Below, piece by piece: positions 29,601 to 52,942 of a stretch of 64,000 nt of DNA. The position numbers and the translations under genes are program-made. The stretch's first letter is position 1, and the number at the start of each line of letters is the position of its first letter. Below the pieces are notes generated by a model, which worked only from the letters and a program-made list of their open reading frames with translations, had not been told where the DNA came from and ran no database searches. The stretch comes from Giardia intestinalis (lineage: Eukaryota): assembly GCA_000002435.2 (NCBI GenBank), contig CM018792.1. One strand, written 5' to 3'.

Positions 29601-31587
29601 ACGGCACAGAGGCCCCAGGAATAAACGAAGCGATTGCAAATGGAAGCAGTGAAATCAGAAATTCCTCAGTTGCAGTTGCGGGTAAAAATGAGCGCAAAAG
29701 GTCTTTGTGCTCCTCGCTAAAATCGATAACCATGTAACCATCGTGGCTAGCAGAGAAAATAGTATCTAATGAAAATAAAAATGCAAAGCAGGAGGCAAAT
29801 AGCTTACTCGTCATGCTCGACTCATGCTGTTGAAGACCAACCATATTACTTAGGTGCAGGTGTCGGCGAAACAATAAGAGCAATAATTGAGTGGCAAGGG
29901 GAACCATTGTATATGTTTCCGATATTGAAGAAGAGTCCTGAGTGTAGCATTCTTCTGAATTGACGGGGATTGGTGCAGATGATTTATCTTCTAGACAGTG
30001 CAAAACATAAAGTAATTGGATGCCGGAAAGAATTGTGTGCAATAACCTTACGCTGAGTAATTCTGAGCACAGCTCATCCATTAGTACTGCCGAAGTGCCC
30101 ACTGGATTTGAAAGGAACTCCGTCAAGACTTGCATCAGCCTGCAATAAGCATTGACAGCCTGCCTAAGAAGGGCATGCTGCGAAGTGTCCATCCGTGCGT
30201 CTCTTAGCATCAAGTGCAGATGCTTAGAGTGATGCTTGCTTGCATGTGTTATGTGAGCTATGATATCAGTTACATGTGTATTATTTTGAGAAACGGCACT
30301 TGGCACAGGAGAGGGATCAGATTTGAGGGATCGCCATGTGTAATCTAGAGCATGCACACATACAGCTAGATAGCAAGTCACATTAAGTGAAGATAAAGCA
30401 GCAAGGCCACTAGCTTCTGCACAAAGAGAGATATTGTGCTGTAAGGACGAAGGAGACGAGCTGTAGGAACTGACAAGTTCGGCACACACTCTGCCATAAT
30501 CCGCATGCAGCCAATCATCAAAGTAGGCAAACACAACGTGAATAAGTACGAAACGCTTGTATGCCTTCATATAAATTCTATTCGTAAATGCAGACAGTTT
30601 TCTCAGTGTATCGTGGGCATACAATGTATCTAGTATACTCTTAGATACTTCAGACACGCTGCCGAGCCGTTGCCCCTCCACCTGGTTAGGCAGACCAAGG
30701 CCCGCTGCCAAGTGGCAAAAGTGCGAGCCCCTGTTTGCAACCAGAGCAGCCAGGCTGTCCGGGGCGATACATGCAGAAAAAAGCCCCACCAATACCGTTG
30801 CGTTACGTAGCTCCGCCGCAGCCACACCGTTAATCCTGTCGGTTACGGCCTGCACATCAGAAAGCCTGCACATCAGAGAGTCGGCGTCGGCCAACTTGCG
30901 CGCCCGCCTGCATGTGAGAAGCACCTGGAAAGTGTCGCTCGCTGTAAGAAGCCTGGGGAAGGCCGCCGGGTCAGCGGGGGGCAGCCACGGATTGGCCGAC
31001 GAAGCGGCTCGATGGGCTGCGAACGCGCATGCGTCAGCCCGCAGAATCTCCAGCAGCGGAAGGCAAGCGCTGAAAGGCTCTCCGCAGCCCTTGCCAAAGC
31101 CCAGCAGCATGCACAGCAGCGCTGTACCACACGCATAAACGCTCAGAAACGGAGCTGCGTCAGTGCCCAGGGGAGCGGTCAAGACGTCCCGCACAGTGCC
31201 TACGCCCCCGATGACACAGAGCTCCGCAAGGGCTGCTCCGAATGTGGTGGCGTCGAGTAAATGCGCGCACACAAGGCACAGCAGCAGCCTTGTTGTAGGC
31301 CAGTTGAGGACGCATTCGCTGCTCTCCGGCTGGAGGTCCAGAATCCAGAGGACGTACGGCTGCTCCACCCCGAGCTGTAGGTCTGACAGCAGGACGATCC
31401 GCTCCAGCCTCTCGGGCCCCTCCCCCGCTGTGCGTATTGCAAGGCTCGCTGCGAAGGCACACGAGACAGGGCTGCGCCGTGCATCCTCGAGCAGGCCGTC
31501 ACTCAGCGCCAGCAGCTCCGCATCCTGCACGACGCCGCCGGTGGCGTGGTAGTTCGCCATCAGGGAGCGCAACGAAGACGCAAGCAT
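23686..31587 (-). CDS. PI3K-related protein kinase (PIKK family; ATM/ATR/TOR-like), about 2633 aa, with a FATC-like C-terminus.
   Basis: The kinase N-lobe is RLILKCGEDTVADYAVMQF. The catalytic loop is GLGDRHSCNILID. The activation segment is VHFIDFEAVFEY...VPFRLT. The C-terminus ...CMFGGWMAFL is FATC-like. The region upstream is helical-repeat (HEAT/FAT-like). The track start 31644 is TTG and the first ATG is at 31587. The first roughly 280 codons lie inside a GC-rich island, so the true start is uncertain. Confidence 0.85.
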   Translation of the reverse strand: MLASSLRSLMANYHATGGVVQDAELLALSDGLLEDARRSPVSCAFAASLAIRTAGEGPERLERIVLLSDLQLGVEQPYVLWILDLQPESSECVLNWPTTRLLLCLVCAHLLDATTFGAALAELCVIGGVGTVRDVLTAPLGTDAAPFLSVYACGTALLCMLLGFGKGCGEPFSACLPLLEILRADACAFAAHRAASSANPWLPPADPAAFPRLLTASDTFQVLLTCRRARKLADADSLMCRLSDVQAVTDRINGVAAAELRNATVLVGLFSACIAPDSLAALVANRGSHFCHLAAGLGLPNQVEGQRLGSVSEVSKSILDTLYAHDTLRKLSAFTNRIYMKAYKRFVLIHVVFAYFDDWLHADYGRVCAELVSSYSSSPSSLQHNISLCAEASGLAALSSLNVTCYLAVCVHALDYTWRSLKSDPSPVPSAVSQNNTHVTDIIAHITHASKHHSKHLHLMLRDARMDTSQHALLRQAVNAYCRLMQVLTEFLSNPVGTSAVLMDELCSELLSVRLLHTILSGIQLLYVLHCLEDKSSAPIPVNSEECYTQDSSSISETYTMVPLATQLLLLLFRRHLHLSNMVGLQQHESSMTSKLFASCFAFLFSLDTIFSASHDGYMVIDFSEEHKDLLRSFLPATATEEFLISLLPFAIASFIPGASVPSDFVSLYLKQISQLYDTNPRVQSYYKLICRIADSCHTVATLNQSAQTSRYMLAYIFFQYFLVQVCGEKYHLITTTISELCMEQICKQTSVAFCLFSSAYLPSLIINLYLPLSRTALSKELALLCVESRTPVMMSYPRLSVEDFVTVTGALAILSCVDSTIASALAYHASPKDLSLSDATLHDALVVAILFLTVLYADTEALAGAKTLKKVELVTSSIKAIKELVALPIFANVKPHKLFSEGIESYNGATAHIFRLLSVIFILMTALFSFSRDVLHRVQLLHTLVSSKKKGSAPAEMPISIFANLSNYTGFLFRITSLCHMKPLLGSICYREAYIDDEPKAPDVVALWNRLKVMYLQVIIYGIHTPVILESLLDYFGIFFYAVSTLVPGFLYTQLAVDMFLTLEEVIDTDQNNSIFTIYWLGYIRLLLEHSGETLTQLIELIIDGRRISEETKRVARLLVSIYRKENEMRHTQLYSSVDSQLHDVDDPAAVLALLELLVDASHTPCEFLWRVLIPLVIHVLNGLFVRSYLSLLITLLPHGANLFDQRGMLQIRGGGTPLAHLLLYIKAYQGRIENTKLKQSAEQVLKTYGTLLDYRTLNPSNGPRDSQKGPEGKVTRGSCGYFTDFITRVIEGGDLYAASCITELNEYFSTLGEDQKTVYISSKIYQRMQSFVELLPIVIRDTEKRHLLNTSLVITNASSFFAIFIDLFLKLLQKGVTQKNIKLAPEAQKHMAHVSDLWAIVEPYINVSQAIGAAFYDALLSLLLEYSDLSLLIDGIGRFLALFFAALITDHCKLVEHIESHFISSLYVTSVETLYSTIPSSDRLTNSNEKDCLAELEQDEPSMRDTLIGDVLDLRRFVAMKQIIELVAFQPYRFSKNSMELLHQIRISDEAIELDVISSFLIKTHFRKYFEEQEAASSWQTLVAELSPEVDRTLYMSRLDSSFEDSMSLTRTAPKTAQKPSVDYLTFLSGHSMLVGNPLRAIMIAGVYWAANEVTYKGVFVDILQYISRSYATVFSICFLKVFRPDAFFSILTLLAEGATDHLSTIATERKNAVMVLRTGVINKLIAGSAEQQKLIYNQDINDTSSNAQLVDRFYGISYTLLGSLYAAVSSYPLHDSFSIPQWRLHNNVINGVPESHTSCGTTATSIVTIRNLLHQYSNMLLRVSMWTELTQFLREQDFFDQMLLALDQFPANTHAHFIAQLRRHKSLLFQHNCQFLYKQILNLACARYRECRYTDLSVRLLVHEFIDNNLFDFAEDTQSFIIEAMFGELMVDLDGIEGKNSSIVSMSTRCSFVGNMYSALATYTFILAIIHRMLFRRPLGGPDSFSKADCWSRFYQKCLVTALSAWMLVVCSLTKLLAYNAQLLMDSNEKNKVSVSFLTSSLLYFAPATDFCLCMDKHQKVAGTIIELIEGTIGSGAGAASDEQKGIPGVEAHVLNFLLALGLDTLITEANEKLTEIIEGSPAILLQNQFHNICSMVIRLCDTKINLIAVEYSSMSVDVMKNHILNVIAKKLIPYSAHFDIAIRQFGVHMNRDYSLEEEALRHPVFNSLIKRIFAVLEAHEVYNPAYTRYIIFSTTMTNVLKYMQLEYAKKSLNTSKECLLPHIISGSFFLIPTLEAISSLREFEYSMTTDKRSPHQIDNHTECVSVLEHYYEYYSSRYAASYVTMVRHFSSKRAPLLFRMSRTKNDHGTRLILKCGEDTVADYAVMQFTEELAKCSVNTFFKPYFVAVLINIPKNQVSIIEHIDGNVVPIDELLTPVFMGAKTKAAEFINEQEPNEDGCFPTFDLFMASVTALSHMEMALSKTHPCRFIALSQKNQRMFATTLAHWCAVCIVTGLGDRHSCNILIDTDDGSVHFIDFEAVFEYPKLLSYAELVPFRLTALIAQLLGPTGIHGCFYWELVKMVSLIQENAPAFINVFYPLAIVRASLGYVRQVKEMLETQRAEEIVNAALAQAADSSRLSCMFGGWMAFL

Positions 31588-32192
31588 GAGCCCTTCTCGG
31601 CAGCCTCTTCGGTTGTCCGCCTGTCCGGGAATTATTCTTGCCAAATTGCATACGATTGCATTTTGAGATTTCGTCTCCTTCCTTGGTGGACTGGAGCTTC
31701 AGCGTAGCGTCGTGTCTCCCAGGCCCGTCCACGCAGTGGCAGGCTACAGAGCCCGTTTGGCTGTCGCACAATGCACTGGTCTACCGGGCACGCTGGGCAG
31801 CATCTTAGCGCCTCCGACGACGAGGAGCCACTGGCCCCTGGACTGCACCACTACGTCACCTATCGGGCACGCGCATGCTTCTTTCCGGGCCCCGTCCATC
31901 CAGCTGCCAGCCCCGGAGGCGGAGCAAGTCGGGAGACACCCCTCTGGCGAGAGCACGACGGACAGCAAGGGCCGGCAGCCTTGCCACGGTTGCCCTCCTC
32001 GGCAGAGAGCCCGGGCCATCGCCCACTCCCCGCGGTCTCCGAAGAGCGCTCGCCTCCTGGTCCACCGGTCCGCATGCGCATCTATTTGCCACGCTCTAGC
32101 AACGAAGGCCCTCACCGGTCTGGCTATCCTGCACTCGACGTGGAAGGTGTTTACATGCGTAATGCACCGGCCGTGGACCAAATCTTAACTTT

Positions 32193-33521
32193 ATGGCGCC
32201 CAGGGCGTCGTCGCCGGCGGAGGCTCCCTCCTTCCCGTCTGTGTCCTCTGCGCTGCAGATGCTTGTGCGGCCGCCTGTTCCAGCGTCAACAGGCGGGCAT
32301 GACCCCGGTGGAGCGAGTCGTCTCCGAGAGGGGCGCAGGGCCTGCGACCTGCGTTCTAGGCTGGGCCTTCTTCTGGGCCAGGCTGACGCGATGTCGGGGA
32401 GAAGCCGAGTGGGCCCGGAGACGCACTGCGCAAGGCTCCACCAGCTTCTAGCGCGGCTCGCAAGGCTGCAGGAAACAGACCGCTTGCTGGACGCCATTGA
32501 GTGTTCGAGTGCCTGCATGGCACAGATCAGCGACCCGGCCTGCCTCCGGTGCCTTCTTCGCGCACACTCCGCCCTAAGCATATCCCCGCCTCCGGCTGGC
32601 CGTGGCGTCTCTCTAGAGAGGCAGCGGCAGTGCATGGCGTCGTCCATCTGTGAGCACTTTTCAGCAGGAATCCGAGGGGCGCTGGACAGGATCCTTGCTT
32701 CGCGCCTCCGCGCCTACCACGAGACGCGCGCTCAAGCGCATCTTACGAAGCCAGAGGCCTCCGACCAACTGGCTAGCCTCCTGTCCGGCCTCCGCGTGGA
32801 GGATGCTGCCCCCATTTCGGCGCACTGGAGCGACCAGCTCTTCTACACGGCTCTCTGCCGCGAAGCAGCCGTTGTCTGCGAGTCCCTGTCTTCACTTGCC
32901 CTTTCGGTGTCGGAACAGGTTAGGCGCTGTATGCACTTGGGCGACAGCGGACCTTTGACTGCGCTGCTCCACGCCGCCAGGTCTTTCGTTTCTGCGTGCG
33001 AGCACGCCTTTTCTGTGTCCTTCCCGACTGGGCTGATGAGTGAGAGCGGAGAGGCAGGCCTTTTGCTGGGCGGGATCGAAGAGACGGGGCCCTACTTTTC
33101 TGCGCGATTGAAGCTGGCCCGGGCAAGGGGGCGGCCTCGTTTAATCGGGCGGCTGTTCGGTTGGTCCGCTGCGTCCCCCATCGAGGCATATGTAGAGCGT
33201 ATTCGTCAAAACTTCAGCGGCCCTGCAGCATGGGCTCCTCCCTACCCAGAGCCGGGCCAGAGCCTTGTGTCTGACAGCTCTGCTGCGAGGCGGTGGCACA
33301 CTACCGGCGCAGGCCAGCTCTTCGTCGACTTCCTTGTTTTGTTTCTGGGGTCAATCTTTGATGCATTTACTCTCGGGGATCAGATTGCAACCTTCCCCTC
33401 TATAGGCCTGTATCTCAGCAACAATCCAGTGGCGGAGGAAGGCGGGCTATTCGCACGGGTCTTCGCTACATACTCAGGAATGGTTGCCAGTGAAGCAGGA
33501 GGTCTAAGGGCTATCGAGTAG
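32193..33521 (+). CDS. Hypothetical protein (442 aa) inside the GC-rich island.
   Basis: True ATG at 32193 with aaatcttaactttATG upstream. The amino-acid composition is not purely Arg/Pro/Ala/Gly. No similarity I recognise. GC-rich DNA leaves many frames open, so caution is needed. Confidence 0.4.
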   Translation: MAPRASSPAEAPSFPSVSSALQMLVRPPVPASTGGHDPGGASRLREGRRACDLRSRLGLLLGQADAMSGRSRVGPETHCARLHQLLARLARLQETDRLLDAIECSSACMAQISDPACLRCLLRAHSALSISPPPAGRGVSLERQRQCMASSICEHFSAGIRGALDRILASRLRAYHETRAQAHLTKPEASDQLASLLSGLRVEDAAPISAHWSDQLFYTALCREAAVVCESLSSLALSVSEQVRRCMHLGDSGPLTALLHAARSFVSACEHAFSVSFPTGLMSESGEAGLLLGGIEETGPYFSARLKLARARGRPRLIGRLFGWSAASPIEAYVERIRQNFSGPAAWAPPYPEPGQSLVSDSSAARRWHTTGAGQLFVDFLVLFLGSIFDAFTLGDQIATFPSIGLYLSNNPVAEEGGLFARVFATYSGMVASEAGGLRAIE

Positions 33522-33820
33522 AGCCATTACTCTGTCCCGATGAGCCGATCCCACCTCGCACCCGTCGCCCGTGCAGCGCCGTCCCTCCGGGCACACGACA
33601 GGGCGCCTCGTGTGCGACCAGGCCAGCGGGCTTCTCCCAGGGGCAGCCCTCGGAGTGGGAGTCTCAGAGAGGAGGCCGCCGGGGCACCCCCACCCGCTGC
33701 ACGCAATCCGGTCCACACCACAGCCTCTCTACTGATACCCCTGTTCGTGGTGAGCGCGCTTGCAGTAACCTACCAGACCGGCAAGTGCGAGACGGTCGGT
33801 AGCACAGAGATCTGCACCCA

Positions 33821-35776
33821 GTGCAGGGCCGGGGCGTCCCGGTCGACGGCTTCTGCCGGCCCCCCGGCTCCATCCAGGCCGCGGCAGCCGGGTGCACCAA
33901 AGCGGGTGGGGCTGCCCTCGATAAGACGGCAACCACCTGCGGAAAGTGCGGCGATGGGTACTTCCTCTTCATGGGCGGGTGCTACAAGACAGAGAGTCAG
34001 CCCGGCAGCGAGATATGCACAACAGCCAGTAATGGACTGTGCACTGCTTGTAACACAGATAGTCAGTACATATTCCAGAACCCTGCTGCACCATCAGAGA
34101 AGGGTAGCGAGTGCATCTTGTGCTGGGATACTACAGATAGAAACGGGGTCATGAGAGTGGATAACTGTCTCAAGTGCACGGCACCTGGTGGCAATACAGG
34201 AGCTGCTAAGTGCACTGCCTGCACAGAGGGACACTTCCTACACACAGATGGGACGTGCCAGGCATGCGGCGCCGGTTGCTCCGAGTGCACGTCCAACACA
34301 GTGTGCACGCACTGCATACCTGGAAGGTACCTGAAAACTGGTGGCAGCTGTGTCGGTGATAACGGCTGTGACGCACAACACTATGCAGACCCGCAGAGCG
34401 GAGAGTGCAAGTCGTGCCCCACTGATACAGCGATACCGGAGTGCACCGCGTGTGCATACAATGATACCCTCAAGAAGCCCGTATGCAGCGAGTGCGACAG
34501 TGGACAAGCAAAGAATCTTCTCAAGAAGAAGGTCGACGGGACTGCGGAGTGCGTCGATGCTGCTGGGTGCGCAACTGTCGGACAGGACGGGACGCACTTT
34601 CGAAGTGACGGAGATACCAAGTGTATACTGTGCGGTGATAGCAGTGGGTCTGGCAACGACCAGGGCATAGCAGACTGCGAGATGTGTAGCAAGGAAGCCT
34701 CTCAGAAGCCGGTGTGTAAAGCATGCCTCCCTGGATTCTACTTGAGTAGCACTTGCAAGCCCTGTGCAGGAAACTGCGCAAAGTGTGGCTCAACAGGAAA
34801 CATACAGGACTGCACTGAATGCATGCCAGGGTACTTTCTAAAAACCGAGGGTGTAACAAAGGAGTGCGTCCCTTGTAGTGACACAGCCAAAGGTGGCATC
34901 GATGGATGCAGTGTCTGCTCGAATGATGGCAATACTTTCAAGTGCACTGACTGTAAGCCTAACTATAAGAAGCAGCCCAATGGAGGAGCAGGGGATGACT
35001 ATACGTGTGTGAAGGTGTGTGAAGACCCCACTGCCTGCGGGGGGACAGCTGGCTCTTGTGATGCAATAGTGATCGACAATGATGGAGTAGAGCATCACTA
35101 CTGTTCATACTGTGGGGAGAGTACTAAGGTACCAATTGATGGCATCTGTGCTACTGATAAGAAAGGTAATACTTGTAACAGTCATACATGTACACAGTGT
35201 GCTCAAGGGTACTTCTTATACATGAATGGCTGTTACAAGGTTGATACAGAACCAGGAAGCCTCATGTGCTCGAAAGCAACAACAGCTGGTGTCTGCACTA
35301 CTCCCAATGCCAACAATAGGTACTTCATAGTCCCAGAGGCAAAGGCTACTGATCAGTCTGTGTTGGCCTGTGGCAACCCCCTTGGCACACTAATAGGTAC
35401 TCAAGACAAAGCTAAGGCATACGTCGGGGTGGATGGCTGCTCCCAGTGTACAGCCCCGACACAGCTAGAGGCTCCTGGTATGACCTCCGCTGTGTGTACT
35501 GCCTGTGACAGTGGTAGGAAGCCCAACAAGGACGGCAGTGGGTGTGTGCTGTGCTCTGTGGGTGATTGTAAGAGCTGTGTGATGGATGATGTGTGTGGGG
35601 AGTGCAACAGTGGCTTCAGCCTAGACAGCAGTGGGGCCTCCTGCGTGTCCTCTGGCGCCAACAGGAGCGGGCTCTCCACGGGGGCCATCGCGGGGATCTC
35701 CGTCGCTGTCATCGTCGTCGTGGGGGGCCTCGTGGGCTTCCTCTGCTGGTGGTTCCTCTGCAGGGGGAAGGCATAA
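33821..35776 (+). CDS. Variant-specific surface protein (VSP), with an intact body but a disrupted 5' end.
   Basis: There are dozens of CXXC motifs, GYFLFMGGCYK and GYFLYMNGCYK (GGCY) motifs, and a C-terminal TM ending GFLCWWFLCRGKA-stop. The track start is GTG. The signal-peptide-like sequence SLLIPLFVVSALA and ...EICTQC lie upstream in another frame (33723-33830). Confidence 0.85.
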   Translation: MQGRGVPVDGFCRPPGSIQAAAAGCTKAGGAALDKTATTCGKCGDGYFLFMGGCYKTESQPGSEICTTASNGLCTACNTDSQYIFQNPAAPSEKGSECILCWDTTDRNGVMRVDNCLKCTAPGGNTGAAKCTACTEGHFLHTDGTCQACGAGCSECTSNTVCTHCIPGRYLKTGGSCVGDNGCDAQHYADPQSGECKSCPTDTAIPECTACAYNDTLKKPVCSECDSGQAKNLLKKKVDGTAECVDAAGCATVGQDGTHFRSDGDTKCILCGDSSGSGNDQGIADCEMCSKEASQKPVCKACLPGFYLSSTCKPCAGNCAKCGSTGNIQDCTECMPGYFLKTEGVTKECVPCSDTAKGGIDGCSVCSNDGNTFKCTDCKPNYKKQPNGGAGDDYTCVKVCEDPTACGGTAGSCDAIVIDNDGVEHHYCSYCGESTKVPIDGICATDKKGNTCNSHTCTQCAQGYFLYMNGCYKVDTEPGSLMCSKATTAGVCTTPNANNRYFIVPEAKATDQSVLACGNPLGTLIGTQDKAKAYVGVDGCSQCTAPTQLEAPGMTSAVCTACDSGRKPNKDGSGCVLCSVGDCKSCVMDDVCGECNSGFSLDSSGASCVSSGANRSGLSTGAIAGISVAVIVVVGGLVGFLCWWFLCRGKA

Positions 35777-35786
35777 GTACTTAGGT

Positions 35787-35793
35787 AGTGAAT
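35787..35793 (+). terminator. AGTGAAT, a Giardia-type AGTRAAY polyadenylation motif.
   Basis: It lies 11 nt downstream of the VSP TAA (35774-35776). Confidence 0.5.
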
Positions 35794-36203
35794 GCTCCGT
35801 TGGTGGTTAGTGCTCAGTGAGCGTCTGCTGTCCATCCACTCGGTGCTGTTCTGAGGGCAGTGTGCGCTGGGAGCGGTCTCCAGGGTCCTCCCGGCCGGGG
35901 CAGGGCAGGCGACAACGGAGCCACGTTTGCAAGGGACTGTATGAAGCATGAGAGTCTATGCAGGGGTGTGAATGGTAAAGAGGAGTATCTGTGTTTTAAA
36001 TAGCATCATAAGATGAGAAGGCATATATAATCAATGCTTGCTGATTAGCACTCCTTTAATAGCAGATAGCCATTACTAAAGAACCTAAAAAGAAGGCGAC
36101 ACCTCAAGGCTGAGACACGATAGACAGGCCCCATGACGAATTATTCGACCGCAGTTAACGAGCTTAAAGATTATTGAGCAGACCAATGTGAATAAACGGA
36201 AAA

Positions 36204-39200
36204 ATGGCTAGTCGAAAACCTAGCGAGCAGCCTCGAACCGGGACAGAGCAGATTAAAGAGCAACTTCTTGCTATCGAGCGAGCAGATGCTCTCTATGGGT
36301 GTTATAGAACAACGACCCCGGGAGTCTACCGAGGCTGGCTTTATAATCTCTACGAAACCGTTTTATTTGGCGACCCCAATGAGGCACGAATCCCTTCTGC
36401 TCAAAGTCCTCCACTTTATGCTGCCGTTGAGTGCTACTTTATGACCGCAGCCCTTGATTTATTCAAGATAATCATTCCTGTGAAACCTTACTTCTATATC
36501 CAGGCTCCTGTGGAGAATTACTTATTCATACAAGAGCGTCTCCTTTTACACTACCCTGACTTGCACATTGAGATGACGCTGATAGAGCGCAATGACTTGT
36601 CGGTCCAGAATCACATTGCTAATGATGGAATAGCTCACTTGCGTCTTTCCTTTGACAATCTCACTAATCTCCGCACTGTGTCTACAGCCCTACTTGGGTT
36701 ACTCCGCCAGAAAGAGCTTTCTGCTGTCGGTGATATTTATAACAAGGCTGGAATTGCCCGAATTACACCAAACACGGACATCAAATCCATTCCTCGAACA
36801 CTCAAGTCCCTCGTGGATTATATAGGTAACGTTTTGGAACACGATGTCAACCTGACCGCTCGGTTCCTTATAGATAATGAACTAACCATGTCGACATGGT
36901 ACAGCGTGACAGTAAAACCAGAGTTAGAAACTCCTTTACTAGAACGCCTAGAGGGTGGTGAATTTGAGCTCCCACCTGTTCCAAAGGTACTAGCCTATGA
37001 CATAGAGACAACAAAAAAGCCCCTTCGCTTCCCAAATGCGGAGGCTGGAGACCAAATAATGTGCATTTCATATATGTTTGATGATCAGGGGTATCTGCTA
37101 ATTAATCGTTCAATCTTCAGCAGAGATATAACTGATTTTGAATATACTCCAAAGCCCGAGTTCCCCGGAAAATTTGCCTGTTTCAACTTACCTACGGAGA
37201 AGGATCTCCTAATCTTTTTCTTCACACATATACGTACAGCCCGGCCGAACATTTTTGCAACATTCAACGGGGACTTCTTTGACTGGCCCTTTGTTGACGT
37301 TCGTGCAGCAGCCTATGGCATGGATTTGCTAGACGAGATTGGAGTTTTAAAATCTGAGTCCACTTCCCGTGCTGGACTTGTTGAGAAGCAATATTATGCA
37401 CGAGCTGTCCCCCATTTGGATTGTTTCAGATGGGTGCGTCGTGATTCCTACCTTCCCCAGGGCTCACAAGGCCTTAAAGCTGTCACACGGGCCAAACTGA
37501 AATATCATCCCGATGAGCTTTCTCCTGAGTTAATGGTTTCCTATGCCCAGACAGATCCGCAGGTTCTGGCTTCTTATTCTGTCTCTGATGCCGTTGCGAC
37601 ATACTATCTATATCGAAAATATGTACATCCATTCATTTTCGCACTGGGAACCATCTTACCCCTGAATCCAGATGACATTCTGCGGCGAGGAACAGGAACG
37701 CTTTGCGAGCACCTCCTCATGGTGGAAGCATACCAGGCTAATGTGCCGTTCCCCAATAAGCATAATGACCCGCTACTTCAGGTAGTGTTTGATGCAAATA
37801 AGGAAAAACGAATCTTACTTAATCAGACCTACGTCGGTGGCAAGGTGGAAGCAATAAATGCAGGTGTCTATAGAAACGACATTGCCTACGACTTCGGATA
37901 CTACAGTGAAGCCTTTAAGACTAGGAGGTTTGAAGGGTATGGATATCTGCTACGATACATAGACAGAGATCTGATTATTCAGCTTAATGTGAGCAAAGTG
38001 TGTAACGAACATACGAGCGCATACCAAAGTGTGCTCAACATACTTGAAGAGATAAGCTTGGAACAGAAGACGATTGAAAGTATATGTAAGAAGGATTCTC
38101 ATGCTTCAGCAACAGAATTATGTTTTTATAAAACGCCAAACAAAAACATTATCTGGCTGCCAGATACCTGGACTAAAGCCAGGGAGCGACTAAAAGAAAG
38201 ACTTTCAAAACCGTTTGAGTCTTATGGCAATCATGTTGACAACCTCATTAGGCATGTTGAGACTACTATCTGTTCCAATTATTCTGAAGTACGGAACTAT
38301 ATTATCGAAGGATTGGTTGCATGTAGCAATACCGTTACTTCCAAGCCCCTTCTCTATCACCTCGACGTTGCAGCTATGTATCCGAATATCATGTTAACAA
38401 ACAAGCTCCAGCCTACTGCTATTGTTGACCCAAATACAACTTGTGCTTCTTGCGACTTTAGCACTATTAAAGAGGCGCAAGTATGCCAGCGTATCATGGA
38501 ATGGGACTGGCGAGGGTCCTACTACCCACTCGACTTTTCAGAGTATCTGATGATAAAAAATCAAACAATCTCTCAGATTGGTGCTGACAGGTGGATGCAC
38601 GCTCTTACTGAATCTGAAAAGGCCAGACTCCTTCATGAGCGTTTAGAGACGTATTCCAAGAGCCAATATAAGCTAAAACAAAAGACCGAAGAGATGCGAA
38701 GGAAAACCATTGTATGTCAGCGTGAAAATAGCTTTTTCATAGATACAGTTCGAAAGTTTCGTGATCGTCGCTACCGGTTCAAGAGAGAGCAGAAAGACCA
38801 TTCCTTAAAGCTGAGTAAAGCAAAGAAACAGCTCACCGAATTAATGGAAGCAGGCCTTGAAGCGTCTGAAGATGCCCAAAATTTACGAAGGGAAATAGAC
38901 TCCCAAACTGGGCTGATAGTTTTAAAGGAGTCACTCCAATTGGCTCACAAATGCATTCTCAACTCCTTCTACGGATACGCCATGCGCAAAGGAAGCCGTT
39001 GGTATTCCCTTGAGATGGCTGCAGCCGTCACACATGCTGGTGCAACCATTATAAAGCGTGCACGGACCCTTATTGAAATGATTGGGTTTGTGCTAGAGCT
39101 GGACACGGATGGGATTTGGTGCTGTTTACCATCATCGTTTCCTGAAACCTGTACGTTTACTATTATCGATCCAGGAAACACTGATGCCCAAAGCAGCCGG

Positions 39201-42200
39201 AGGGTAAGCTTCAGCTATCCTGGAACAATGTTAAATGCACTGACACAAACGCAGAACACTAATAAGCAGTATCTTATTAACGTCATACATAATAAGGATC
39301 CTCCATCTCATGACCATGGCATTAAATTAAAGTGTGATAAGAATGCTCAAGGATCCCTTCCTGGATTTGACTCTAATGATATGTCATTGTTATTATATGC
39401 GTCCTCTCCATCTAGGGATTTGTTACTAGGCAAGAATACCTCGTCTTCTAGCACTCAGTTGGAATCGCCAATTAAGGCATGGAAAAGAGTCAATGAGTGC
39501 ACAATTGAGTTTGAGGTTGATGGACCCTACTCATGTATGGTTTTATCAGCAGCTAGAGAAGAGGGTGTTCGAATCAAGAAAAAGTACGCAGTCTTTGACC
39601 TTACGGGGGGCCTTTCGGAACTGAAAGGATTTGAGCTCAAAAGGAGAGGTGAGCTAAAAATTATCAAGTCATTTCAGACACGTGTTTTTTCCCAATTCCT
39701 TAAGGGTGGAACTCTGGAGGATGCATACGATCACGCAGCAAGGGTTGCAAATACGTATTTGGATATTATTTATACCAAGGGATCCTTCCTTACAGATCAG
39801 CAACTCATTACACTTATATCTGAGGCCAGTACTCTGAAAAACTCCCTCAACAGTACGCCCAAAAACCGCAAATCCACTTCTATTACATGTGCTCGCCGCA
39901 TGACCAGCTTTCTTGACCCTTTGTTCGCAAGTGTAGACGGATTAAGCGTTGAGTACATCATTAGTAAGCTCCCAGAGGGATCACCTGTTAGTGAAAGAGC
40001 TGTTCCAGTCCAGATATTCAATTCTCCCGAACATGTACGGTTCAAGTTTCTTCGACAATGGATAGGAGATCACAAAGGCGACACTGTTGCAGATATACGT
40101 GAACTTATTGACTGGGATTACTACCTAGCTAGACTGTCCGGAGCTATCTATAAGATAATAGTTGTTCCATCTGGTCTCCAAGGGATTGCAGCCTCACCAG
40201 TTCAAAGAATTGCATTTCCTGATTGGCTGGTCCAATCCCAGGCACAACTATCCACCAAGCAATTCAGTAACATTTTGCAGCAGTATTTAAAGATAGGAAG
40301 TGAAAAATCTAAGGCCGCAAAGTTAAATACACAAGCAATCGAACGCGGAAATCCTTATCCTAACGAAGAGCCTCTGTCCTCTGCTAATACTAGTAACATT
40401 CAAGAAGATGACCCCAACGAAAGTGAAGATGAGAATGATACCGTTTCAACTGGGACAGAATCCGATGACAGTAGTTGCAGCCATGAAGAAAAAGATGGTC
40501 ACGTTAGGCCGCACCTTGTCGAGAACAGGCTCGTCCACCACCCAAAAACAGCTGCAGAATTTTCACGATGGTATATGCAGCAAACCGTTTACTGGACAGA
40601 ACTTGTGGAGAAGAACATCATTGGAAGGCCGTACTATCTCTCTCACAATGTATCTCTCGGCGGTAAACATTCCATATCCCATCAATTACGTGCCAATCGT
40701 GCGATGTATGATGCCAGTAACGATTTTAAGTTACACATAGTGACCGTTACTGTTCTCCCCTCGGGAAAAGTATCGTGCTTCTGCATAAATAAGAATAGGA
40801 TAATGAAACGCATTATCTTTGGAACATCGGTACGGGTATACTTCAACCTCAAAACTGCCATTCCGCAGGATGTTATTGCTAATTATTCATCACCGACACT
40901 TACAATTGCTGATGTTACGAAAAAGAATCTGGTTCTTCCCGATATGGCTTGTTGTACTCAGCTGTTGCTGTATGAAATGAGTGCAGATACACATGCATCG
41001 GGACAGTCGTCCTTCCAAGAATTGAAAAGCAGTGTTGTTGTAACGGACGTTTACGAAGCTGATGTATCAGGGCCTTTTCGGTTCTTAATTGAGTTTCGTC
41101 ACAAGTTGGACCTTCCCGAAACATATGAAAGTAGAAGATTTCTTAACATGGGGGAAGTACCATACACATACTCAGCAAAGTATGCTAGTCAAGGATCTGC
41201 AAAGAATGGTACTGATTGGTTTTCTATTTTTCCATTTGAAAAGGATACTTCACCGTGTTACCCTGTTGGTTTTGTGGTAGAGACAAACAAGCATCTTACA
41301 AGCCTACTTCCAGATGGACGGTTGGCACTCATAACTGTTGCTACTGACATTGATCCACTTAACTTAGATATTGACGCAGAGGCAGTAGCCCCTGACGTAG
41401 CTTCTCTTTTTGCTCAGTTGCTAGAGGATTTTGTGGGACACCTTTCCACAGGGGCCACCAAACCAGGCCAGGCTACATTAGATTCAGTAGTTGCTCACAC
41501 ATTTAGGTATATCCTAAGAGTCATTAAGCAGTGTGGGGTTGAAGAAAAGGAAAGGACGTCAGGATTGAATATACAGACACTCAAGAATGCTCTCCTATTT
41601 AGAACAGCAAGAAATCCAAGTGATGCCATTGAAGCCCTTGCAGAGTTATATAGTCAAAATAGTGAGTCTGCATTATTATTCTGGAAAGCAGATTGCAAAA
41701 GTAAGAGCCGAGCCAGAAGCACGTCGACAAACATATATTTCAAAGAGCAACATTTTATCATTGATTTGCCTGAAAACCCGTGTCCGTACACAGAGATCCT
41801 AATCTCACATGACACGCATGCCCCTTACAACCAAGACGCACCAACTGAAGAGCCAAGTCTGAAGCGACCACCCGTTCTTTCTGCATGCAACTCAGAAATC
41901 ACAAGACGTTTCACTATGATGCTCCAACCCTTAGTATCTCTAATAGTTGACACAATAGTGGCTCAATATATCTCTCACATTTTCACTATTCCTATAAACC
42001 TCGTGCTAGATGAATCTGAGTTCTGTAAAGTTGTTCTTCCTCAAGATCTTCTATCTGGAACTCAAGCATCCTGTACTACTACTCTACTACTTGATACCCT
42101 TATTGCAAGAGAGTATGCCAACAACAACATGCTGCTGCCATCACGAGACCGGAAAGAATCAAGAATGTTTGCCACCGAATACACGTTGCGAAGTGGAATG

Positions 42201-43976
42201 TACCACGGTTACAGCTTGATGATTCCAGTAAGGAATACGTTTATGCAGCTTCTTATGAACTATCTTATAAAGCCTCCTGTTGTAATCGCAACGCCATCAA
42301 ATCAAACAATTAAGGCTCTCCCAGCTCGTGTAACCTCCGCGTCCCGCTTGCGCATGCTCAGCAAAACACTCAAAGGTATTGCATTTTCACAGAGCATCCC
42401 TGCGCAAGTTAAGCACCATATTTCGAGCATGATAAAAACATATCTCTTCTCCAATGTGTCTCTTTTATTTAGCAATGGAATGGTTGAAATTCTATACGAA
42501 GAACTTCACCAGTTTTACGCAACATATGACGATATCCTCGCAGAAAGCGGATACATCCTGGTGTACGCAGATGTCACGAAAAACATCATCGCGTCAGAGA
42601 AGATGGACCCAGAACTGCTTTTAAATAGTTATCGCTACTTGCTGCGTAACGTCTACTCGACGGGTCTCTTTCAGCTGTACGAACTACCATCTGTGGAGGC
42701 TGTCTGCCAGTGTTTGTGTGGATGTCCCGCCTATAGCAACGCCATCAAAGAGGCTCTAGTAATGCAACTACACAACAATACTATCATGAACATAGAGGGT
42801 TCTGTCTTCCTTTCAAAGGCAAAGGCACAAGCAAAACAAGCTTTAGAGTCCTCCCCTAGTTATGCGTTAAAATCCCCAGCCACAATAAACCCAACCTCGA
42901 AACAAGAAGAAGCGAAGACAGGAGAGGCAGCGTTCTGTTTTAACTCAAATATACCACAAATTACAGTAATACGCCATCTGGCGTTCATAGATATTGCAAA
43001 CTACTTTGGATACTCGTGCAACCTAGACCATGTGATAGGTCATTTTAGTGCTCAAGAGCCACTACCAAAGGAGCTTAGATACATCTTCCAGCTAGCTGCA
43101 TCTGCGTACTCTCTAATCATGAACGACAGTATAAGCAAGAGCGCTAAATCTGTCTCCTCGGCAAATGGAGAACTGAAAAGCAGTGGAACGAGATTCATTG
43201 AGTTTCTTCAAAAATGCGTTTTTGACATGGCGCCCTTTACTAAGGACGAGCAGGCTGTCTTCATGGGCAAATTAGTTGCTCTACAAGCAAATGCTAAGAT
43301 CCGCGAAACGCTACATACACTGGCAGATCTATTTCACATCTATTATATTAAAAACATAACTCAGTGGCCTCAGAAAGTAACGCACATGTACGCACAAGCA
43401 GGAATGTCGAAGTTGTTAGATAGTCTATCACCTGGGATATACTTTGTTAGAACATTTCTGTACATTTTTTCACTAGATGAACGAATCAGAGATGTGACTA
43501 GGTCGTTCTGCTGGGGGATTTTGCCCGGAATAGGAGTATATAGTCCCCTAGACACCAGAATAAAGTACGAAGAATTATTCCAGGAATATAATGTGTCGAA
43601 CATTCTGTGTGACGCATGCAAACAACTAAACCGCCTGGATGTTATGCGTAATAAGGCGTTCTACTGTTTCTCCTGCGGAGGCGTTATAGAAAGTAGCGTG
43701 CTTGAGAGAGGCTTAAGTAGGCAGTTATCACAACTGGTAACCGATTACTTTTCTCGGCAAAGCACATCAAGAACCGTGATAATTCATAAACACAATAATC
43801 TAGACAAAAATGAGGAAGAAATGCTTCTTGACCGTGTAACAAATGAAATAGGAATGATATTATTGGCATCTCAGGTTCATGATATGGTTGATCTCTTTGA
43901 AATGTGCACGTGGTGGAGCCAACAGCTTAATTATCACAACAGACAATTTAGTTTTGCGACGGTGGGGAAACAATAG
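36204..43976 (+). CDS. POLE: DNA polymerase epsilon catalytic subunit A.
   Basis: Exo I is YDIETTKKPLRFPNAEAGDQIMCISYM, and ...NGDFFDWPF follows. Pol motif A is LDVAAMYPNIMLTNKLQP, NSFYGYAMRKGSRWYS is present, and motif C is ELDTDGIWC. C-terminal Cys clusters are present (CDACKQL...CFSCGG). The true ATG at 36204 is preceded by aataaacggaaaaATG. Length is 2590 aa. Confidence 0.9.
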   Translation: MASRKPSEQPRTGTEQIKEQLLAIERADALYGCYRTTTPGVYRGWLYNLYETVLFGDPNEARIPSAQSPPLYAAVECYFMTAALDLFKIIIPVKPYFYIQAPVENYLFIQERLLLHYPDLHIEMTLIERNDLSVQNHIANDGIAHLRLSFDNLTNLRTVSTALLGLLRQKELSAVGDIYNKAGIARITPNTDIKSIPRTLKSLVDYIGNVLEHDVNLTARFLIDNELTMSTWYSVTVKPELETPLLERLEGGEFELPPVPKVLAYDIETTKKPLRFPNAEAGDQIMCISYMFDDQGYLLINRSIFSRDITDFEYTPKPEFPGKFACFNLPTEKDLLIFFFTHIRTARPNIFATFNGDFFDWPFVDVRAAAYGMDLLDEIGVLKSESTSRAGLVEKQYYARAVPHLDCFRWVRRDSYLPQGSQGLKAVTRAKLKYHPDELSPELMVSYAQTDPQVLASYSVSDAVATYYLYRKYVHPFIFALGTILPLNPDDILRRGTGTLCEHLLMVEAYQANVPFPNKHNDPLLQVVFDANKEKRILLNQTYVGGKVEAINAGVYRNDIAYDFGYYSEAFKTRRFEGYGYLLRYIDRDLIIQLNVSKVCNEHTSAYQSVLNILEEISLEQKTIESICKKDSHASATELCFYKTPNKNIIWLPDTWTKARERLKERLSKPFESYGNHVDNLIRHVETTICSNYSEVRNYIIEGLVACSNTVTSKPLLYHLDVAAMYPNIMLTNKLQPTAIVDPNTTCASCDFSTIKEAQVCQRIMEWDWRGSYYPLDFSEYLMIKNQTISQIGADRWMHALTESEKARLLHERLETYSKSQYKLKQKTEEMRRKTIVCQRENSFFIDTVRKFRDRRYRFKREQKDHSLKLSKAKKQLTELMEAGLEASEDAQNLRREIDSQTGLIVLKESLQLAHKCILNSFYGYAMRKGSRWYSLEMAAAVTHAGATIIKRARTLIEMIGFVLELDTDGIWCCLPSSFPETCTFTIIDPGNTDAQSSRRVSFSYPGTMLNALTQTQNTNKQYLINVIHNKDPPSHDHGIKLKCDKNAQGSLPGFDSNDMSLLLYASSPSRDLLLGKNTSSSSTQLESPIKAWKRVNECTIEFEVDGPYSCMVLSAAREEGVRIKKKYAVFDLTGGLSELKGFELKRRGELKIIKSFQTRVFSQFLKGGTLEDAYDHAARVANTYLDIIYTKGSFLTDQQLITLISEASTLKNSLNSTPKNRKSTSITCARRMTSFLDPLFASVDGLSVEYIISKLPEGSPVSERAVPVQIFNSPEHVRFKFLRQWIGDHKGDTVADIRELIDWDYYLARLSGAIYKIIVVPSGLQGIAASPVQRIAFPDWLVQSQAQLSTKQFSNILQQYLKIGSEKSKAAKLNTQAIERGNPYPNEEPLSSANTSNIQEDDPNESEDENDTVSTGTESDDSSCSHEEKDGHVRPHLVENRLVHHPKTAAEFSRWYMQQTVYWTELVEKNIIGRPYYLSHNVSLGGKHSISHQLRANRAMYDASNDFKLHIVTVTVLPSGKVSCFCINKNRIMKRIIFGTSVRVYFNLKTAIPQDVIANYSSPTLTIADVTKKNLVLPDMACCTQLLLYEMSADTHASGQSSFQELKSSVVVTDVYEADVSGPFRFLIEFRHKLDLPETYESRRFLNMGEVPYTYSAKYASQGSAKNGTDWFSIFPFEKDTSPCYPVGFVVETNKHLTSLLPDGRLALITVATDIDPLNLDIDAEAVAPDVASLFAQLLEDFVGHLSTGATKPGQATLDSVVAHTFRYILRVIKQCGVEEKERTSGLNIQTLKNALLFRTARNPSDAIEALAELYSQNSESALLFWKADCKSKSRARSTSTNIYFKEQHFIIDLPENPCPYTEILISHDTHAPYNQDAPTEEPSLKRPPVLSACNSEITRRFTMMLQPLVSLIVDTIVAQYISHIFTIPINLVLDESEFCKVVLPQDLLSGTQASCTTTLLLDTLIAREYANNNMLLPSRDRKESRMFATEYTLRSGMYHGYSLMIPVRNTFMQLLMNYLIKPPVVIATPSNQTIKALPARVTSASRLRMLSKTLKGIAFSQSIPAQVKHHISSMIKTYLFSNVSLLFSNGMVEILYEELHQFYATYDDILAESGYILVYADVTKNIIASEKMDPELLLNSYRYLLRNVYSTGLFQLYELPSVEAVCQCLCGCPAYSNAIKEALVMQLHNNTIMNIEGSVFLSKAKAQAKQALESSPSYALKSPATINPTSKQEEAKTGEAAFCFNSNIPQITVIRHLAFIDIANYFGYSCNLDHVIGHFSAQEPLPKELRYIFQLAASAYSLIMNDSISKSAKSVSSANGELKSSGTRFIEFLQKCVFDMAPFTKDEQAVFMGKLVALQANAKIRETLHTLADLFHIYYIKNITQWPQKVTHMYAQAGMSKLLDSLSPGIYFVRTFLYIFSLDERIRDVTRSFCWGILPGIGVYSPLDTRIKYEELFQEYNVSNILCDACKQLNRLDVMRNKAFYCFSCGGVIESSVLERGLSRQLSQLVTDYFSRQSTSRTVIIHKHNNLDKNEEEMLLDRVTNEIGMILLASQVHDMVDLFEMCTWWSQQLNYHNRQFSFATVGKQ

Positions 43977-44313
43977 ACAAAACCAGATTTTCACGCTCTG
44001 TGGCTATTGTCGTGCCATTATGGAATGCTAGGTACGCTTGCTGAGCATGTGATGCCAATAAGGTCGCAGAGGCAGCAAATCGTCGTATTGCAACAGTATT
44101 TTCCCGACTAATTATACTGTTTTCCAGCCCCAGGTCAACCCCATAGAGCCAGCTAGCGAAGCTCGTGGCCAGATGCTCGTCGTTCATCTATAACTTAGGT
44201 TCTAAATTGATTTTATTCGTCATGTTTTACAAGGAAGAAGCAAGTCACGCTAATTATGCAATTAATTCACTTGTTGCTTTGCAAACACTACAACTTGTAG
44301 TATGATACCGGCG

Positions 44314-45510: not shown

Positions 45511-45544
45511 CTTTTTGCAGGCGCGCAGGGAACGGCGCAGGGAA

Positions 45545-46494: not shown

Positions 46495-46502
46495 TTTTTT
46501 GA

Positions 46503-47843: not shown

Positions 47844-47854
47844 TTATAATTTTG
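47844..47854. promoter_or_regulatory. 11-bp AT-rich spacer (TTTATAATTTTG) between divergent start codons.
   Basis: CAT 47841-47843 and ATG 47855-47857 flank it. It is the only AT-rich sequence within several hundred bp of GC-rich DNA. Confidence 0.45.
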
Positions 47855-49901: not shown

Positions 49902-49955
49902 TGTAAATTCCGATCGCAAGTTCATGTGAAATTGCAGCCAACACAAAATTCCTGG

Positions 49956-52175: not shown

Positions 52176-52186
52176 TAAACCGTCGT

Positions 52187-52582: not shown

Positions 52583-52942
52583 CCGCGCGCCGTTCTCGGC
52601 GACGCCGAAGTTGCGGGGAAGCAGAGCGCCCGCGCGATGATCTTTGCTTGACTCAGATAAATAGATATAGATATCTTATGAGTTGTCACTGGCAAATAAC
52701 CAGCACTCGATTAAAAACACGTGGACAGGACAGGGCACAAGTGAGCAGCCAAGGTAGATGTCATATTTATACTAATGGATTGTCCAAAAAGCTACTGTAA
52801 ACAATGCTAAAAAGCCCTAGTAAATAGTCGATTATAAGGTTACAGTAGTACAACCACAGAAGTAAATAATTAGTTATGGAGTGAAATGCATTCACAATTT
52901 GTGACGAATCTATAACGTTCCGCAAATATCTAACGCTTATGT

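What the first reader, a model, noticed from the sequence alone, without database searches (positions are those of the whole stretch)
33540..33960. VSP with intact 1.9-kb body but a disrupted 5' end: signal peptide and first CXXC in another frame, and no ATG
The VSP body (33821..35776) is a textbook VSP up to CRGKA-stop. The expected N-terminus (SLLIPLFVVSALA signal-like segment, then KCETVGSTEICTQC) is encoded in a different frame (that of ORF 33540..34154). The body frame has a TAG at 33800-33802. The two frames would join as ...EICTQCRAGGVPVDGFCRPPGS... if one nucleotide were added in the run cagggccggggcgtcccggtc (about 33821-33841). The signal-like segment is not preceded by ATG; the codon where Met is expected is tct. 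The nearest upstream ATG (33540) would add a 60-aa Arg/Pro-rich extension. Either this is a silent or recently decayed VSP pseudogene sitting at the edge of the GC island, or there is a homopolymer sequencing error. If real, it is a snapshot of VSP repertoire decay, or a donor cassette for recombination.
Basis: partly seen in the sequence, partly recalled or inferred. Interest (0 to 1): 0.55.

Follow-up and report, generated by a model that had tools for sequence, protein, structure and literature searches.

The report
Annotated Giardia VSP pseudogene, start-less
This is a surface-antigen (VSP) pseudogene of Giardia intestinalis WB that the reference genome already lists as GL50803_0050218; its missing start codon is old and shared with several sister copies, so it is an ordinary member of a well-known class.

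Summary
The window is Giardia intestinalis WB, probably chromosome 4. The VSP body (33821..35776) is intact up to CRGKA. Its signal peptide and first CXXC lie in another frame. TAG 33800 closes the body frame. One missing G in the run 33831-33834 separates the two frames, and no ATG precedes the signal peptide.

The locus is already annotated as pseudo-VSP GL50803_0050218 (old tag GL50803_40630; VSP-70 of Adam 2010, then read as a 601-aa VSP without an initiator). WB has about 208 such pseudo-VSPs. Pseudo-VSPs with the signal peptide in a different frame from the ORF have been described in print.

New here: the start-less 5' end is not recent decay. The same GC-rich leader and ATG-less signal peptide occur at the syntenic locus of isolate DH (assemblage A2), at two further DH loci and at one ENA-assembly locus. 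With the upstream 442-aa hypothetical gene it forms a roughly 3.5-kb repeated module. The VSP bodies behind these copies differ, about 70% identical at the syntenic pair against 97-99% in the flanks, so bodies have been exchanged behind an old dead 5' end.

The G4 frameshift is probably real, since the Sanger-era annotation implies the same frame break. It makes little difference anyway, because no usable start exists. Low interest; already known.

The parts
30647..34235 (.). Repeated GC-rich module (about 3.5 kb, 60-70% GC). It runs from just upstream of the PI-kinase gene body to about 500 nt into the VSP.
   Evidence: Window 30647-34235 matches L006 (DH contig AHGT01000001) at 93.5%. Window 30725-34198 matches L010 (DH AHGT01000095) at 94.7%. 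The syntenic DH locus L007 is 96.6% identical. The flanks of L006 and L010 are unrelated to the window. GC profile.
32193..33521 (+). GL50803_00113952, a 442-aa hypothetical protein gene inside the module. It ends at TAG 33519-33521, in the same frame as the VSP signal peptide.
   Evidence: Exact match to KAE8304263.1. Paralogues at >=90% identity: GL50803_00114445, d114445, 111911 and DHA2_153910. The ORF is intact in all 4 module copies; variable sites by codon position are 15/11/25. No Pfam hit.
33527..33722 (+). GC-rich leader shared by all five start-less VSP copies. It is non-coding.
   Evidence: About 93% identical in L005, L006, L007 and L010. L005 and L006 carry an in-frame TGA in it. 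There is no codon-position bias (6/9/11). It is only 28% A+T in the 60 nt before the expected start, against 57-75% for neighbouring genes, and has no PyAATGTT initiator.
33540..33542 (+). The only upstream in-frame ATG. It is specific to WB.
   Evidence: ACG in L005, L006, L007 and L010.
33723..33725 (+). GCC codon at the position where intact relatives have the Met codon.
   Evidence: Alignment of A-S-L-L-I-P-L-F to M-F-Q-L-I-P-L-F of P0001 and P0011. The codon is GCC in all five loci.
33726..33830 (+). Orphaned VSP N-terminus in the upstream frame. It holds the signal-like SLLIPLFVVSALA (33726-33764), TAC 33771-33773 (Tyr where the other copies have Cys TGC), and KCETVGSTEICTQC (33783-33824).
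   Evidence: Translation. Alignment to the four other loci and to P0011.
33800..33802 (+). TAG that closes the body frame upstream.
33831..33834 (+). G4 run, the site of the 1-nt deletion that separates the N-terminus from the body.
   Evidence: The homologues have GGGGG (L005, L007, L010) or GGAGG (L006) at this site. The repaired junction aligns continuously to P0011.
33803..35776 (+). Annotated pseudogene pVSP GL50803_0050218 (1974 nt; old locus tag GL50803_40630).
   Evidence: The sequence string and the length of 1974 nt match Table S7 of bioRxiv 10.1101/2022.03.07.483299. [quoted passage not shown]
33821..35776 (+). Intact VSP body ORF: 651 codons, transmembrane segment, CRGKA, stop.
   Evidence: The repaired 684-aa protein is 11.4% Cys with 28 CXXC motifs.
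33971..35776 (+). The 601-aa ORF from the first in-frame ATG. This is the 2007/2010 gene model GL50803_40630, VSP-70.
   Evidence: 601 aa, 61.6 kDa, 71 Cys and 26 CXXC match Adam 2010 Additional file 1 exactly.
34235..35632 (+). Variable VSP body, which differs from the syntenic DH copy.
   Evidence: L007 against the window: 96.6% identity up to 34231, 99.06% from 35632 onwards, only about 70% in between. The body is a mosaic of best matches to different VSPs.
35778..35797 (+). VSP-type extended polyadenylation signal TACTTAGGTAGTGAATGCTC.
   Evidence: Sequence. Listed for GL50803_0050218 in Table S6 of the bioRxiv paper.

Best explanation
This is a non-translatable VSP pseudogene of Giardia intestinalis WB, the annotated pVSP GL50803_0050218.

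Shown:
- It has a complete VSP body, C-terminal anchor and polyA signal, but no start codon, no initiator element and no A+T-rich promoter.
- In their place stands a GC-rich leader that forms the right end of a repeated module of about 3.5 kb. The module also carries the 442-aa hypothetical gene GL50803_00113952.
- The start-less leader and signal peptide are shared with the syntenic locus of isolate DH and with three other loci, so the inactivation is old.
- In WB a further 1-nt deletion in a G run (33831-33834) and a Cys-to-Tyr change (33771-33773) have been added on top.
- The VSP body behind the shared 5' end differs between WB and DH at the same chromosomal site.

Inferred:
- The bodies of these pseudogenes are exchanged with other VSP genes by ectopic recombination or gene conversion. 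The conserved N-terminal and C-terminal VSP sequences would serve as the homology arms.
- That exchange would keep the bodies open although they are not expressed as protein. It would make the locus a passive member, and possibly a donor, of the recombining VSP sequence pool.
For: Identity of the window. Six window proteins match WB proteins KAE83042xx exactly, on a 2.76-Mb chromosome. GL50803_00113952 and the PI-kinase flank the locus.

Existing annotation. pVSP GL50803_0050218 matches by sequence string and by its length of 1974 nt.

VSP membership of the body. PF03302 at 134 bits, CRGKA, extended polyA signal.

No start.
- ATG/stop map.
- No PyAATGTT initiator, and only 28% A+T upstream.
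- All five loci read GCC at the Met position.
- ATG 33540 is ACG elsewhere, and TGA lies in the leader of L005 and L006.

Frameshift. G4 against five bases in four homologues. The repaired junction aligns to P0011.

Same frame break in the Sanger-era gene model. 601 aa, 71 Cys and 26 CXXC.

Repeated module..

Body swap. 96.6% / about 70% / 99.06% identity along the syntenic DH locus. Mosaic best hits along the body.

Open bodies.
- 0 stops in 651 codons here; 695-, 703- and 657-aa open bodies in L007, L006 and L005.
- Neutral substitutions alone would leave the frame open with probability 0.16 at 3% divergence and 0.04 at 5%.

Literature.
- 133 VSPs plus 208 pseudo-VSPs in WB, the pseudo-VSPs defined by lack of a signal peptide or start codon (PMC7000408).
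- ATG-less vsp genes regarded as pseudogenes (PMC2996952).
Against: - No read-level data for WB could be inspected. Independent WB short-read contigs stop at the VSP 3' end, and none of the ORF products of this region that I looked up is on record in them.
- The DH assembly may contain homopolymer errors of its own. The platform is not known to me from these tools, so the DH C-run frameshift is uncertain.
- Gene conversion is inferred from identity profiles only. No donor or recipient tract was identified, because the other WB VSP loci could not be fetched.
- Table S10 of the bioRxiv paper gives the locus a logCPM of about 5.8, so it may be transcribed. An RNA-level role cannot be excluded.
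Confidence: 0.86

Rival explanations
1. Assembly artefact. The missing G is a residual PacBio homopolymer error. The true sequence would then be one long ORF from ATG 33540 to CRGKA, making an intact, unusual VSP with a 62-aa N-terminal extension.
For: The WB reference is PacBio-based, and its authors report frameshifts from homopolymer errors, corrected only where at least 10 Illumina reads gave at least 50% support. The site lies in a multi-copy module, where read mapping is harder.
Against: - The Sanger-era gene model GL50803_40630 is the 601-aa ORF from the internal ATG 33971, with identical Cys and CXXC counts. An open upstream frame would have given a model of about 745 aa.
- G4 is a short run.
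- Even with G5 there is no initiator, no A+T-rich promoter, and the signal peptide would be internal.
- ATG 33540 is ACG in all other copies, and the leader carries stops in two of them. The extension is therefore not a conserved coding region.
Confidence: 0.07
2. Recently decayed gene. A VSP that was functional until lately was inactivated in WB by the frameshift and a start-codon mutation, a snapshot of decay.
For: The body is perfectly open, with all VSP hallmarks. WB-specific lesions exist: the G-run deletion and Cys-to-Tyr at 33771-33773.
Against: The ATG-less 5' end and leader are shared by the syntenic DH locus and three paralogous loci, at 92-97% identity. The start was therefore lost before these copies separated. 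The open body is better explained by replacement: about 70% identity to the DH body between flanks of 97-99%.
Confidence: 0.05
3. Functional start-less gene. The ATG would be supplied by cis- or trans-splicing onto the CACAG|CC junction just before the signal peptide, or by read-through from the 442-aa ORF, which lies in the same frame.
For: The leader ends ...CCACACCACAG, which loosely resembles the ...ACACACAG 3' end of Giardia introns (resemblance judged from memory). The 442-aa ORF and the signal peptide share a frame, separated by a single TAG. The leader is conserved at about 93%.
Against: - There is no GTATGT 5' splice site within 1.5 kb upstream in WB, L006 or L007.
- The CTRAC branch motif is absent by eye.
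- L005 and L006 have an extra in-frame TGA in the leader, and L005 lacks the 442-aa gene altogether.
- WB and two DH copies carry frameshifts right after the signal peptide.
- 135 of 136 functional VSPs carry the initiator at their ATG.
Confidence: 0.02

Closest known systems
Pseudo-VSPs (psi-VSP / pVSP) of Giardia intestinalis WB, as defined by Xu et al. 2020 (PMC7000408) and in bioRxiv 10.1101/2022.03.07.483299
   Same: VSP-like sequence with a CRGKA tail and extended polyA signal but no proper start codon or signal peptide in frame. This very locus is listed as pVSP GL50803_0050218. The bioRxiv paper already notes a small group of pVSPs 'with ORF but without SP' whose signal peptide lies in another frame.
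   Different: Most pVSPs sit in arrays or are truncated. This one is solitary, between a hypothetical gene and DNA polymerase epsilon. It keeps a full-length body, and its dead 5' end is part of a repeated GC-rich module. I did not find that last point in the papers I read.
ATG-less vsp genes regarded as pseudogenes by Adam et al. 2010 (PMC2996952)
   Same: A conserved 3' end with CRGKA and no usable in-frame start.
   Different: The three genes described there are short (224-902 nt). This locus was counted in that paper as a complete 601-aa VSP without an initiator (VSP-70), because an internal Met was taken as the start.
Functional VSP genes closest in sequence (WB P0001 and P0011; VSP4A1 P0004)
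   Same: 55-61% identity over the whole body, 87-96% over parts of the N-terminal region, and the same MFQLIPLF-type signal peptide family.
   Different: Those have an ATG within the PyAATGTT initiator. Here GCC stands at that position, a GC-rich leader replaces the promoter, and the frame is broken.
Pseudo-VSP arrays of Giardia muris, proposed as a reservoir for gene conversion (cited in bioRxiv 10.1101/2022.03.07.483299)
   Same: Signal-peptide-less VSP copies with open bodies. The idea is that they exchange sequence with expressed VSPs.
   Different: A different species and arrangement (telomeric arrays). Here the only evidence for exchange is the body swap between WB and DH at one syntenic site.

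Membership tests
VSP (Giardia variant-specific surface protein, Pfam PF03302) | C-terminal transmembrane segment followed by the invariant CRGKA tail | tested here: met
   ...GGLVGFLCWWFLCRGKA-stop at 35776. PF03302 scores 134 bits against a cutoff of 31.4.
VSP (Giardia variant-specific surface protein, Pfam PF03302) | Cysteine-rich ectodomain with many CXXC motifs (about 12% Cys) | tested here: met
   11.4-11.8% Cys and 26-28 CXXC motifs.
VSP (Giardia variant-specific surface protein, Pfam PF03302) | Extended polyadenylation signal ACTYAGRTAGTRAAY a few nt after the stop | tested here: met
   TACTTAGGTAGTGAATGCTC at 35778-35797. Listed for this locus in Table S6.
Functional (expressible) VSP gene | ATG start followed in frame by a signal peptide | tested here: not met
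   GCC stands at the Met position. The signal peptide is in a different frame from the body. TAG 33800 closes the body frame.
Functional (expressible) VSP gene | Initiator element PyAATGTT at the start codon (135 of 136 WB VSPs) | tested here: not met
   No PyAATGTT on the + strand in 32000-36300. The 60 nt before the expected start are 28% A+T.
Pseudo-VSP (psi-VSP / pVSP) | VSP-like sequence lacking a proper signal peptide or start codon (definition of Xu 2020) | tested here: met
   See the rows above. In addition the reference annotation calls it pVSP GL50803_0050218, 'partial; pseudo'.
Giardia cis-spliced gene | 5' splice site GTATGT and 3' motif CTRACACACAG (consensus recalled from memory) | tested here: not met
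   No GTATGT within 1.5 kb upstream in WB, L006 or L007. The 3' end TCCACACCACAG lacks the CTRAC branch motif, judged by eye.
Processed (retro-copied) pseudogene | Poly(A) tract after the polyA signal, with homology ending at the transcript ends | tested here: not met
   No A tract follows AGTGAA. The 3' flank is syntenic with DH at 99%.

The most novel reading that the evidence does not exclude
The roughly 3.5-kb GC-rich module (442-aa hypothetical gene + leader + ATG-less VSP 5' end) would be a conserved, multi-copy platform. It would hold full-length VSP bodies in a silent, promoter-less state and swap them with the expressed repertoire by gene conversion. In other words, it would be a dedicated archive/donor site for antigenic diversification in Giardia duodenalis, not a chance pseudogene.
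Probability: 0.15. Interest if true: 0.45.

Novelty: already known. Interest (0 to 1): 0.12.

Why it matters
In itself it matters little. It is one of about 208 annotated pseudo-VSPs of the WB reference genome, and this type (signal peptide in another frame, no start) has been described.

The comparative detail found here has modest value for people who study how Giardia diversifies its surface antigens:
- The start-less 5' end is old.
- It belongs to a repeated GC-rich module.
- Different, still open VSP bodies sit behind it in WB and DH at the same chromosomal site.

This is direct, if limited, support for sequence exchange between silent and active VSP copies. It also warns against treating the 601-aa model GL50803_40630 as an expressible VSP.

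Tried and rejected
1. Independent WB assemblies as a stand-in for raw reads. Exact look-ups of the 651-aa, 601-aa, 204-aa and 442-aa ORF products found no contig. WB short-read contigs that carry polymerase epsilon stop at 35757-35856, at the VSP 3' end, or later at 36127.
2. A second database search with the 204-aa frame-0 ORF found only the DH fragment P0229. The G4 run could therefore not be verified at read level.
3. WB paralogues P0001 and P0011 could not be fetched as DNA. The promoter/ATG breakpoint against an intact WB VSP was inferred at protein level only.
4. L009, an ENA contig with the PI-kinase, ends 116 nt upstream of that gene's ATG and does not reach the VSP.
5. Rfam found no RNA family anywhere in the window.
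6. The bacterial promoter/terminator scan found nothing. It is not informative for Giardia.
7. A self-comparison found no second copy of the module or of the VSP inside the window.
8. Four ideas were considered and rejected, for the reasons given under the rival explanations and the membership tests:
   - an intron or trans-splicing supplying the ATG;
   - read-through from the 442-aa ORF;
   - a 62-aa coding extension from ATG 33540;
   - a retro-copy origin.
Full report
**Origin of the window.** Six predicted proteins of the window are exact matches to proteins of Giardia intestinalis WB clone C6 in the 2020 reference assembly. They include KAE8304264.1 (DNA polymerase epsilon, 36204..43976), KAE8304260.1 (XRN2) and KAE8304273.1 (ankyrin repeat protein 3), all on a 2.76-Mb chromosome. 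Two genes lie upstream of the finding:
- the PI3/PI4-kinase KAE8304262.1 (23686..31587, minus strand);
- the 442-aa hypothetical protein GL50803_00113952, KAE8304263.1 (32193..33521, plus strand).

No protein is annotated between that gene and polymerase epsilon. The best database hit to the VSP body is only 61% identical.

**Check of the observation.**
- ORF 33821..35776 is an uninterrupted 651-codon VSP body ending in ...FLCRGKA. It scores 134 bits on Pfam PF03302. The VSP-type extended polyadenylation motif follows at 35778-35797.
- The signal-like SLLIPLFVVSALA (33726-33764) and KCETVGSTEICTQC (33783-33824) are in the frame of ORF 33540..34154.
- TAG 33800-33802 closes the body frame.
- Inserting one G into the run 33831-33834 gives ...CRAGGVPVDGFCRPPGS.... 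This aligns without a break to WB VSP P0011: 69% identity over 174 aa, E = 7e-70.
- The only in-frame ATG between TAG 33519 and the signal peptide is at 33540.

One small correction: against the MFQLIPLF N-terminus of the closest intact VSPs, the Met-equivalent codon is GCC 33723-33725, not TCT.

**The locus is already annotated.** A string search of the supplementary tables of bioRxiv 10.1101/2022.03.07.483299 found this exact sequence as pVSP GL50803_0050218 on NC_051859.1. Its 1974 nt equal window 33803..35776. [quoted passage not shown]

In Adam et al. 2010 (PMC2996952, Additional file 1) GL50803_40630 is VSP-70: clade I, chromosome 4, 'complete', initiator 'No', 601 aa, 61.6 kDa, 71 Cys, 26 CXXC. 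The ORF from the internal ATG 33971 gives exactly these numbers.

The locus was therefore first read as an initiator-less 601-aa VSP and later reclassified as a pseudogene.
- Xu et al. 2020 (PMC7000408) count 133 VSPs and 208 pseudo-VSPs in WB. They define pseudo-VSPs by the lack of a proper signal peptide or start codon.
- The bioRxiv paper states that in a small group of pVSPs with an ORF but no signal peptide, a signal peptide can be found in another frame.

That is precisely this finding.

**Is the frameshift real?** I could not inspect reads.
- For an error: the reference is PacBio-based and had homopolymer frameshifts that were only partly corrected with Illumina data.
- Against an error: the Sanger-era gene model already started at the internal Met with identical composition. 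An open upstream frame would have produced a model of about 745 aa. G4 is also a short run.

I rate the deletion as probably real, about 0.85. In any case it does not decide the status of the gene, for the reasons below.

**The missing start is old and shared.** Four related loci were recovered:
- L007, the syntenic locus of isolate DH (assemblage A2, AHGT01000032), upstream of the DH polymerase epsilon;
- L006 (DH, AHGT01000001);
- L010 (DH, AHGT01000095);
- L005 (ENA assembly ERZ28528424).

All four share the GC-rich leader (window 33527-33722, about 93% identity). All read ...CACAG-GCC-T(T/C)T or ATT-CTA-CTG-ATA-CCC..., with GCC where Met should be.
- ATG 33540 is ACG in all four.
- L005 and L006 have an in-frame TGA inside the leader.
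- The leader shows no codon-position bias, 6/9/11.
- There is no PyAATGTT initiator in 32000-36300.
- The 60 nt before the expected start are 28% A+T, against 57-75% for neighbouring genes.

At the frameshift site the others have five bases (GGGGG or GGAGG) where WB has GGGG. L007 and L010 carry a different 1-nt loss in the following C run, C5 against C6 at 33859-33864. WB alone has TAC (Tyr) at 33771-33773 where the others keep Cys TGC.

The start was therefore lost before these copies diverged. The WB frameshift and the Cys loss are later, secondary lesions.

**A repeated module.** Window 30647-34235 aligns to L006 at 93.5%, and window 30725-34198 aligns to L010 at 94.7%. Both have unrelated flanks. 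The syntenic L007 is 96.6% identical over the same stretch. In 200-nt windows the three DH copies are about equally close to WB, 93-99%.

The module contains the 442-aa gene.
- This gene has at least three more paralogues at >=90% identity in WB (GL50803_00114445, d114445, 111911) and one annotated in DH.
- It is intact in all four module copies and shows a mild third-position excess, 15/11/25.
- It has no Pfam domain.

L005 carries only the leader and the VSP, without that gene. The VSP 5' end is thus not at the edge of the GC island; it is the right end of a repeated unit.

**Bodies are exchanged.** Along the syntenic DH locus, identity to WB is 96.6% up to 34231, about 70% across the body, and 99.06% from 35632 onwards through polymerase epsilon. 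Since WB and DH separated, at least one of the two bodies has been replaced, and the breakpoints lie in the conserved N-terminal and C-terminal VSP regions.

The WB body is a mosaic whose best 50-aa matches jump between different VSPs.

All four bodies seen are open: 651, 695, 703 and 657 codons. Neutral substitutions alone would keep 651 codons open with probability 0.16 at 3% divergence and 0.04 at 5%. This is moderate, indirect support for renewal by gene conversion, an idea already proposed for pseudo-VSP arrays of G. muris.

**Rejected alternatives.**
- Splicing: there is no GTATGT within 1.5 kb upstream, and no branch motif.
- Read-through from the 442-aa ORF: it shares the frame, but there are extra stops in two copies and the gene is absent in L005.
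- Retro-copy: there is no A tract, and the 3' flank is syntenic.
- Rfam found nothing.

**Verdict.** The interpretation as a silent VSP pseudogene is supported, but 'recent decay' is not. The feature is already annotated and belongs to a well-described class. Interest is low. The only addition is the comparative picture: an old, module-borne dead 5' end with exchangeable bodies.

Noticed in passing
window 30570-31587 (minus strand): The annotated PI3/PI4-kinase KAE8304262.1 starts at ATG 31587. Its first 310 or so codons (30650-31587) lie inside the repeated GC-rich module and show no codon-position bias among module copies (26/28/31). In DH the same stretch occurs at two loci with no kinase attached. 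ATG 30570 has a typical A+T-rich upstream (65% A+T) and may be the true start.
   Followed up: partly
window 32193-33521 (+): The 442-aa hypothetical protein GL50803_00113952 belongs to a multi-copy family at >=90% identity (GL50803_00114445, d114445, 111911; DHA2_153910). It is always intact in the copies seen, has no Pfam domain, and is low but detectable in the expression tables of the bioRxiv paper. In every copy whose flanking DNA I could read (this window and three DH loci), the start-less VSP leader follows it.
   Followed up: partly
window 44000-53000: A second, larger GC-rich island (61-70% GC) lies right after polymerase epsilon, with long overlapping ORFs on both strands. It contains hypothetical genes, among them GL50803_0017351, which has an identical duplicate d17351 (KAE8304269.1 / KAE8304278.1). 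It has no sequence similarity to the first island.
   Followed up: partly
L007 7433-7700 and L010 7537-7800 (DH), equivalent to window 33859-33864: Two DH copies, including the syntenic one, have C5 instead of C6 just after the signal peptide. Each therefore has its own frameshift at a different homopolymer from WB. The DH gene models start at GTG or in the shifted frame and are labelled 'partial' or misnamed (for example 'DnaJ-type Zn finger domain protein'). It could be real or an error in the DH assembly.
   Followed up: partly
window 35757-35856: Independent short-read (Logan) assemblies of WB that carry polymerase epsilon mostly end here, at or just after the conserved VSP 3' end. This is the expected effect of the roughly 300-copy VSP C-terminal repeat on short-read assembly.
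   Followed up: no
window 33519-33725: The 442-aa ORF and the orphaned VSP signal peptide are in the same reading frame, separated by the single stop TAG 33519. Stops in the leader of L005 and L006 make a fusion or read-through product unlikely.
   Followed up: yes
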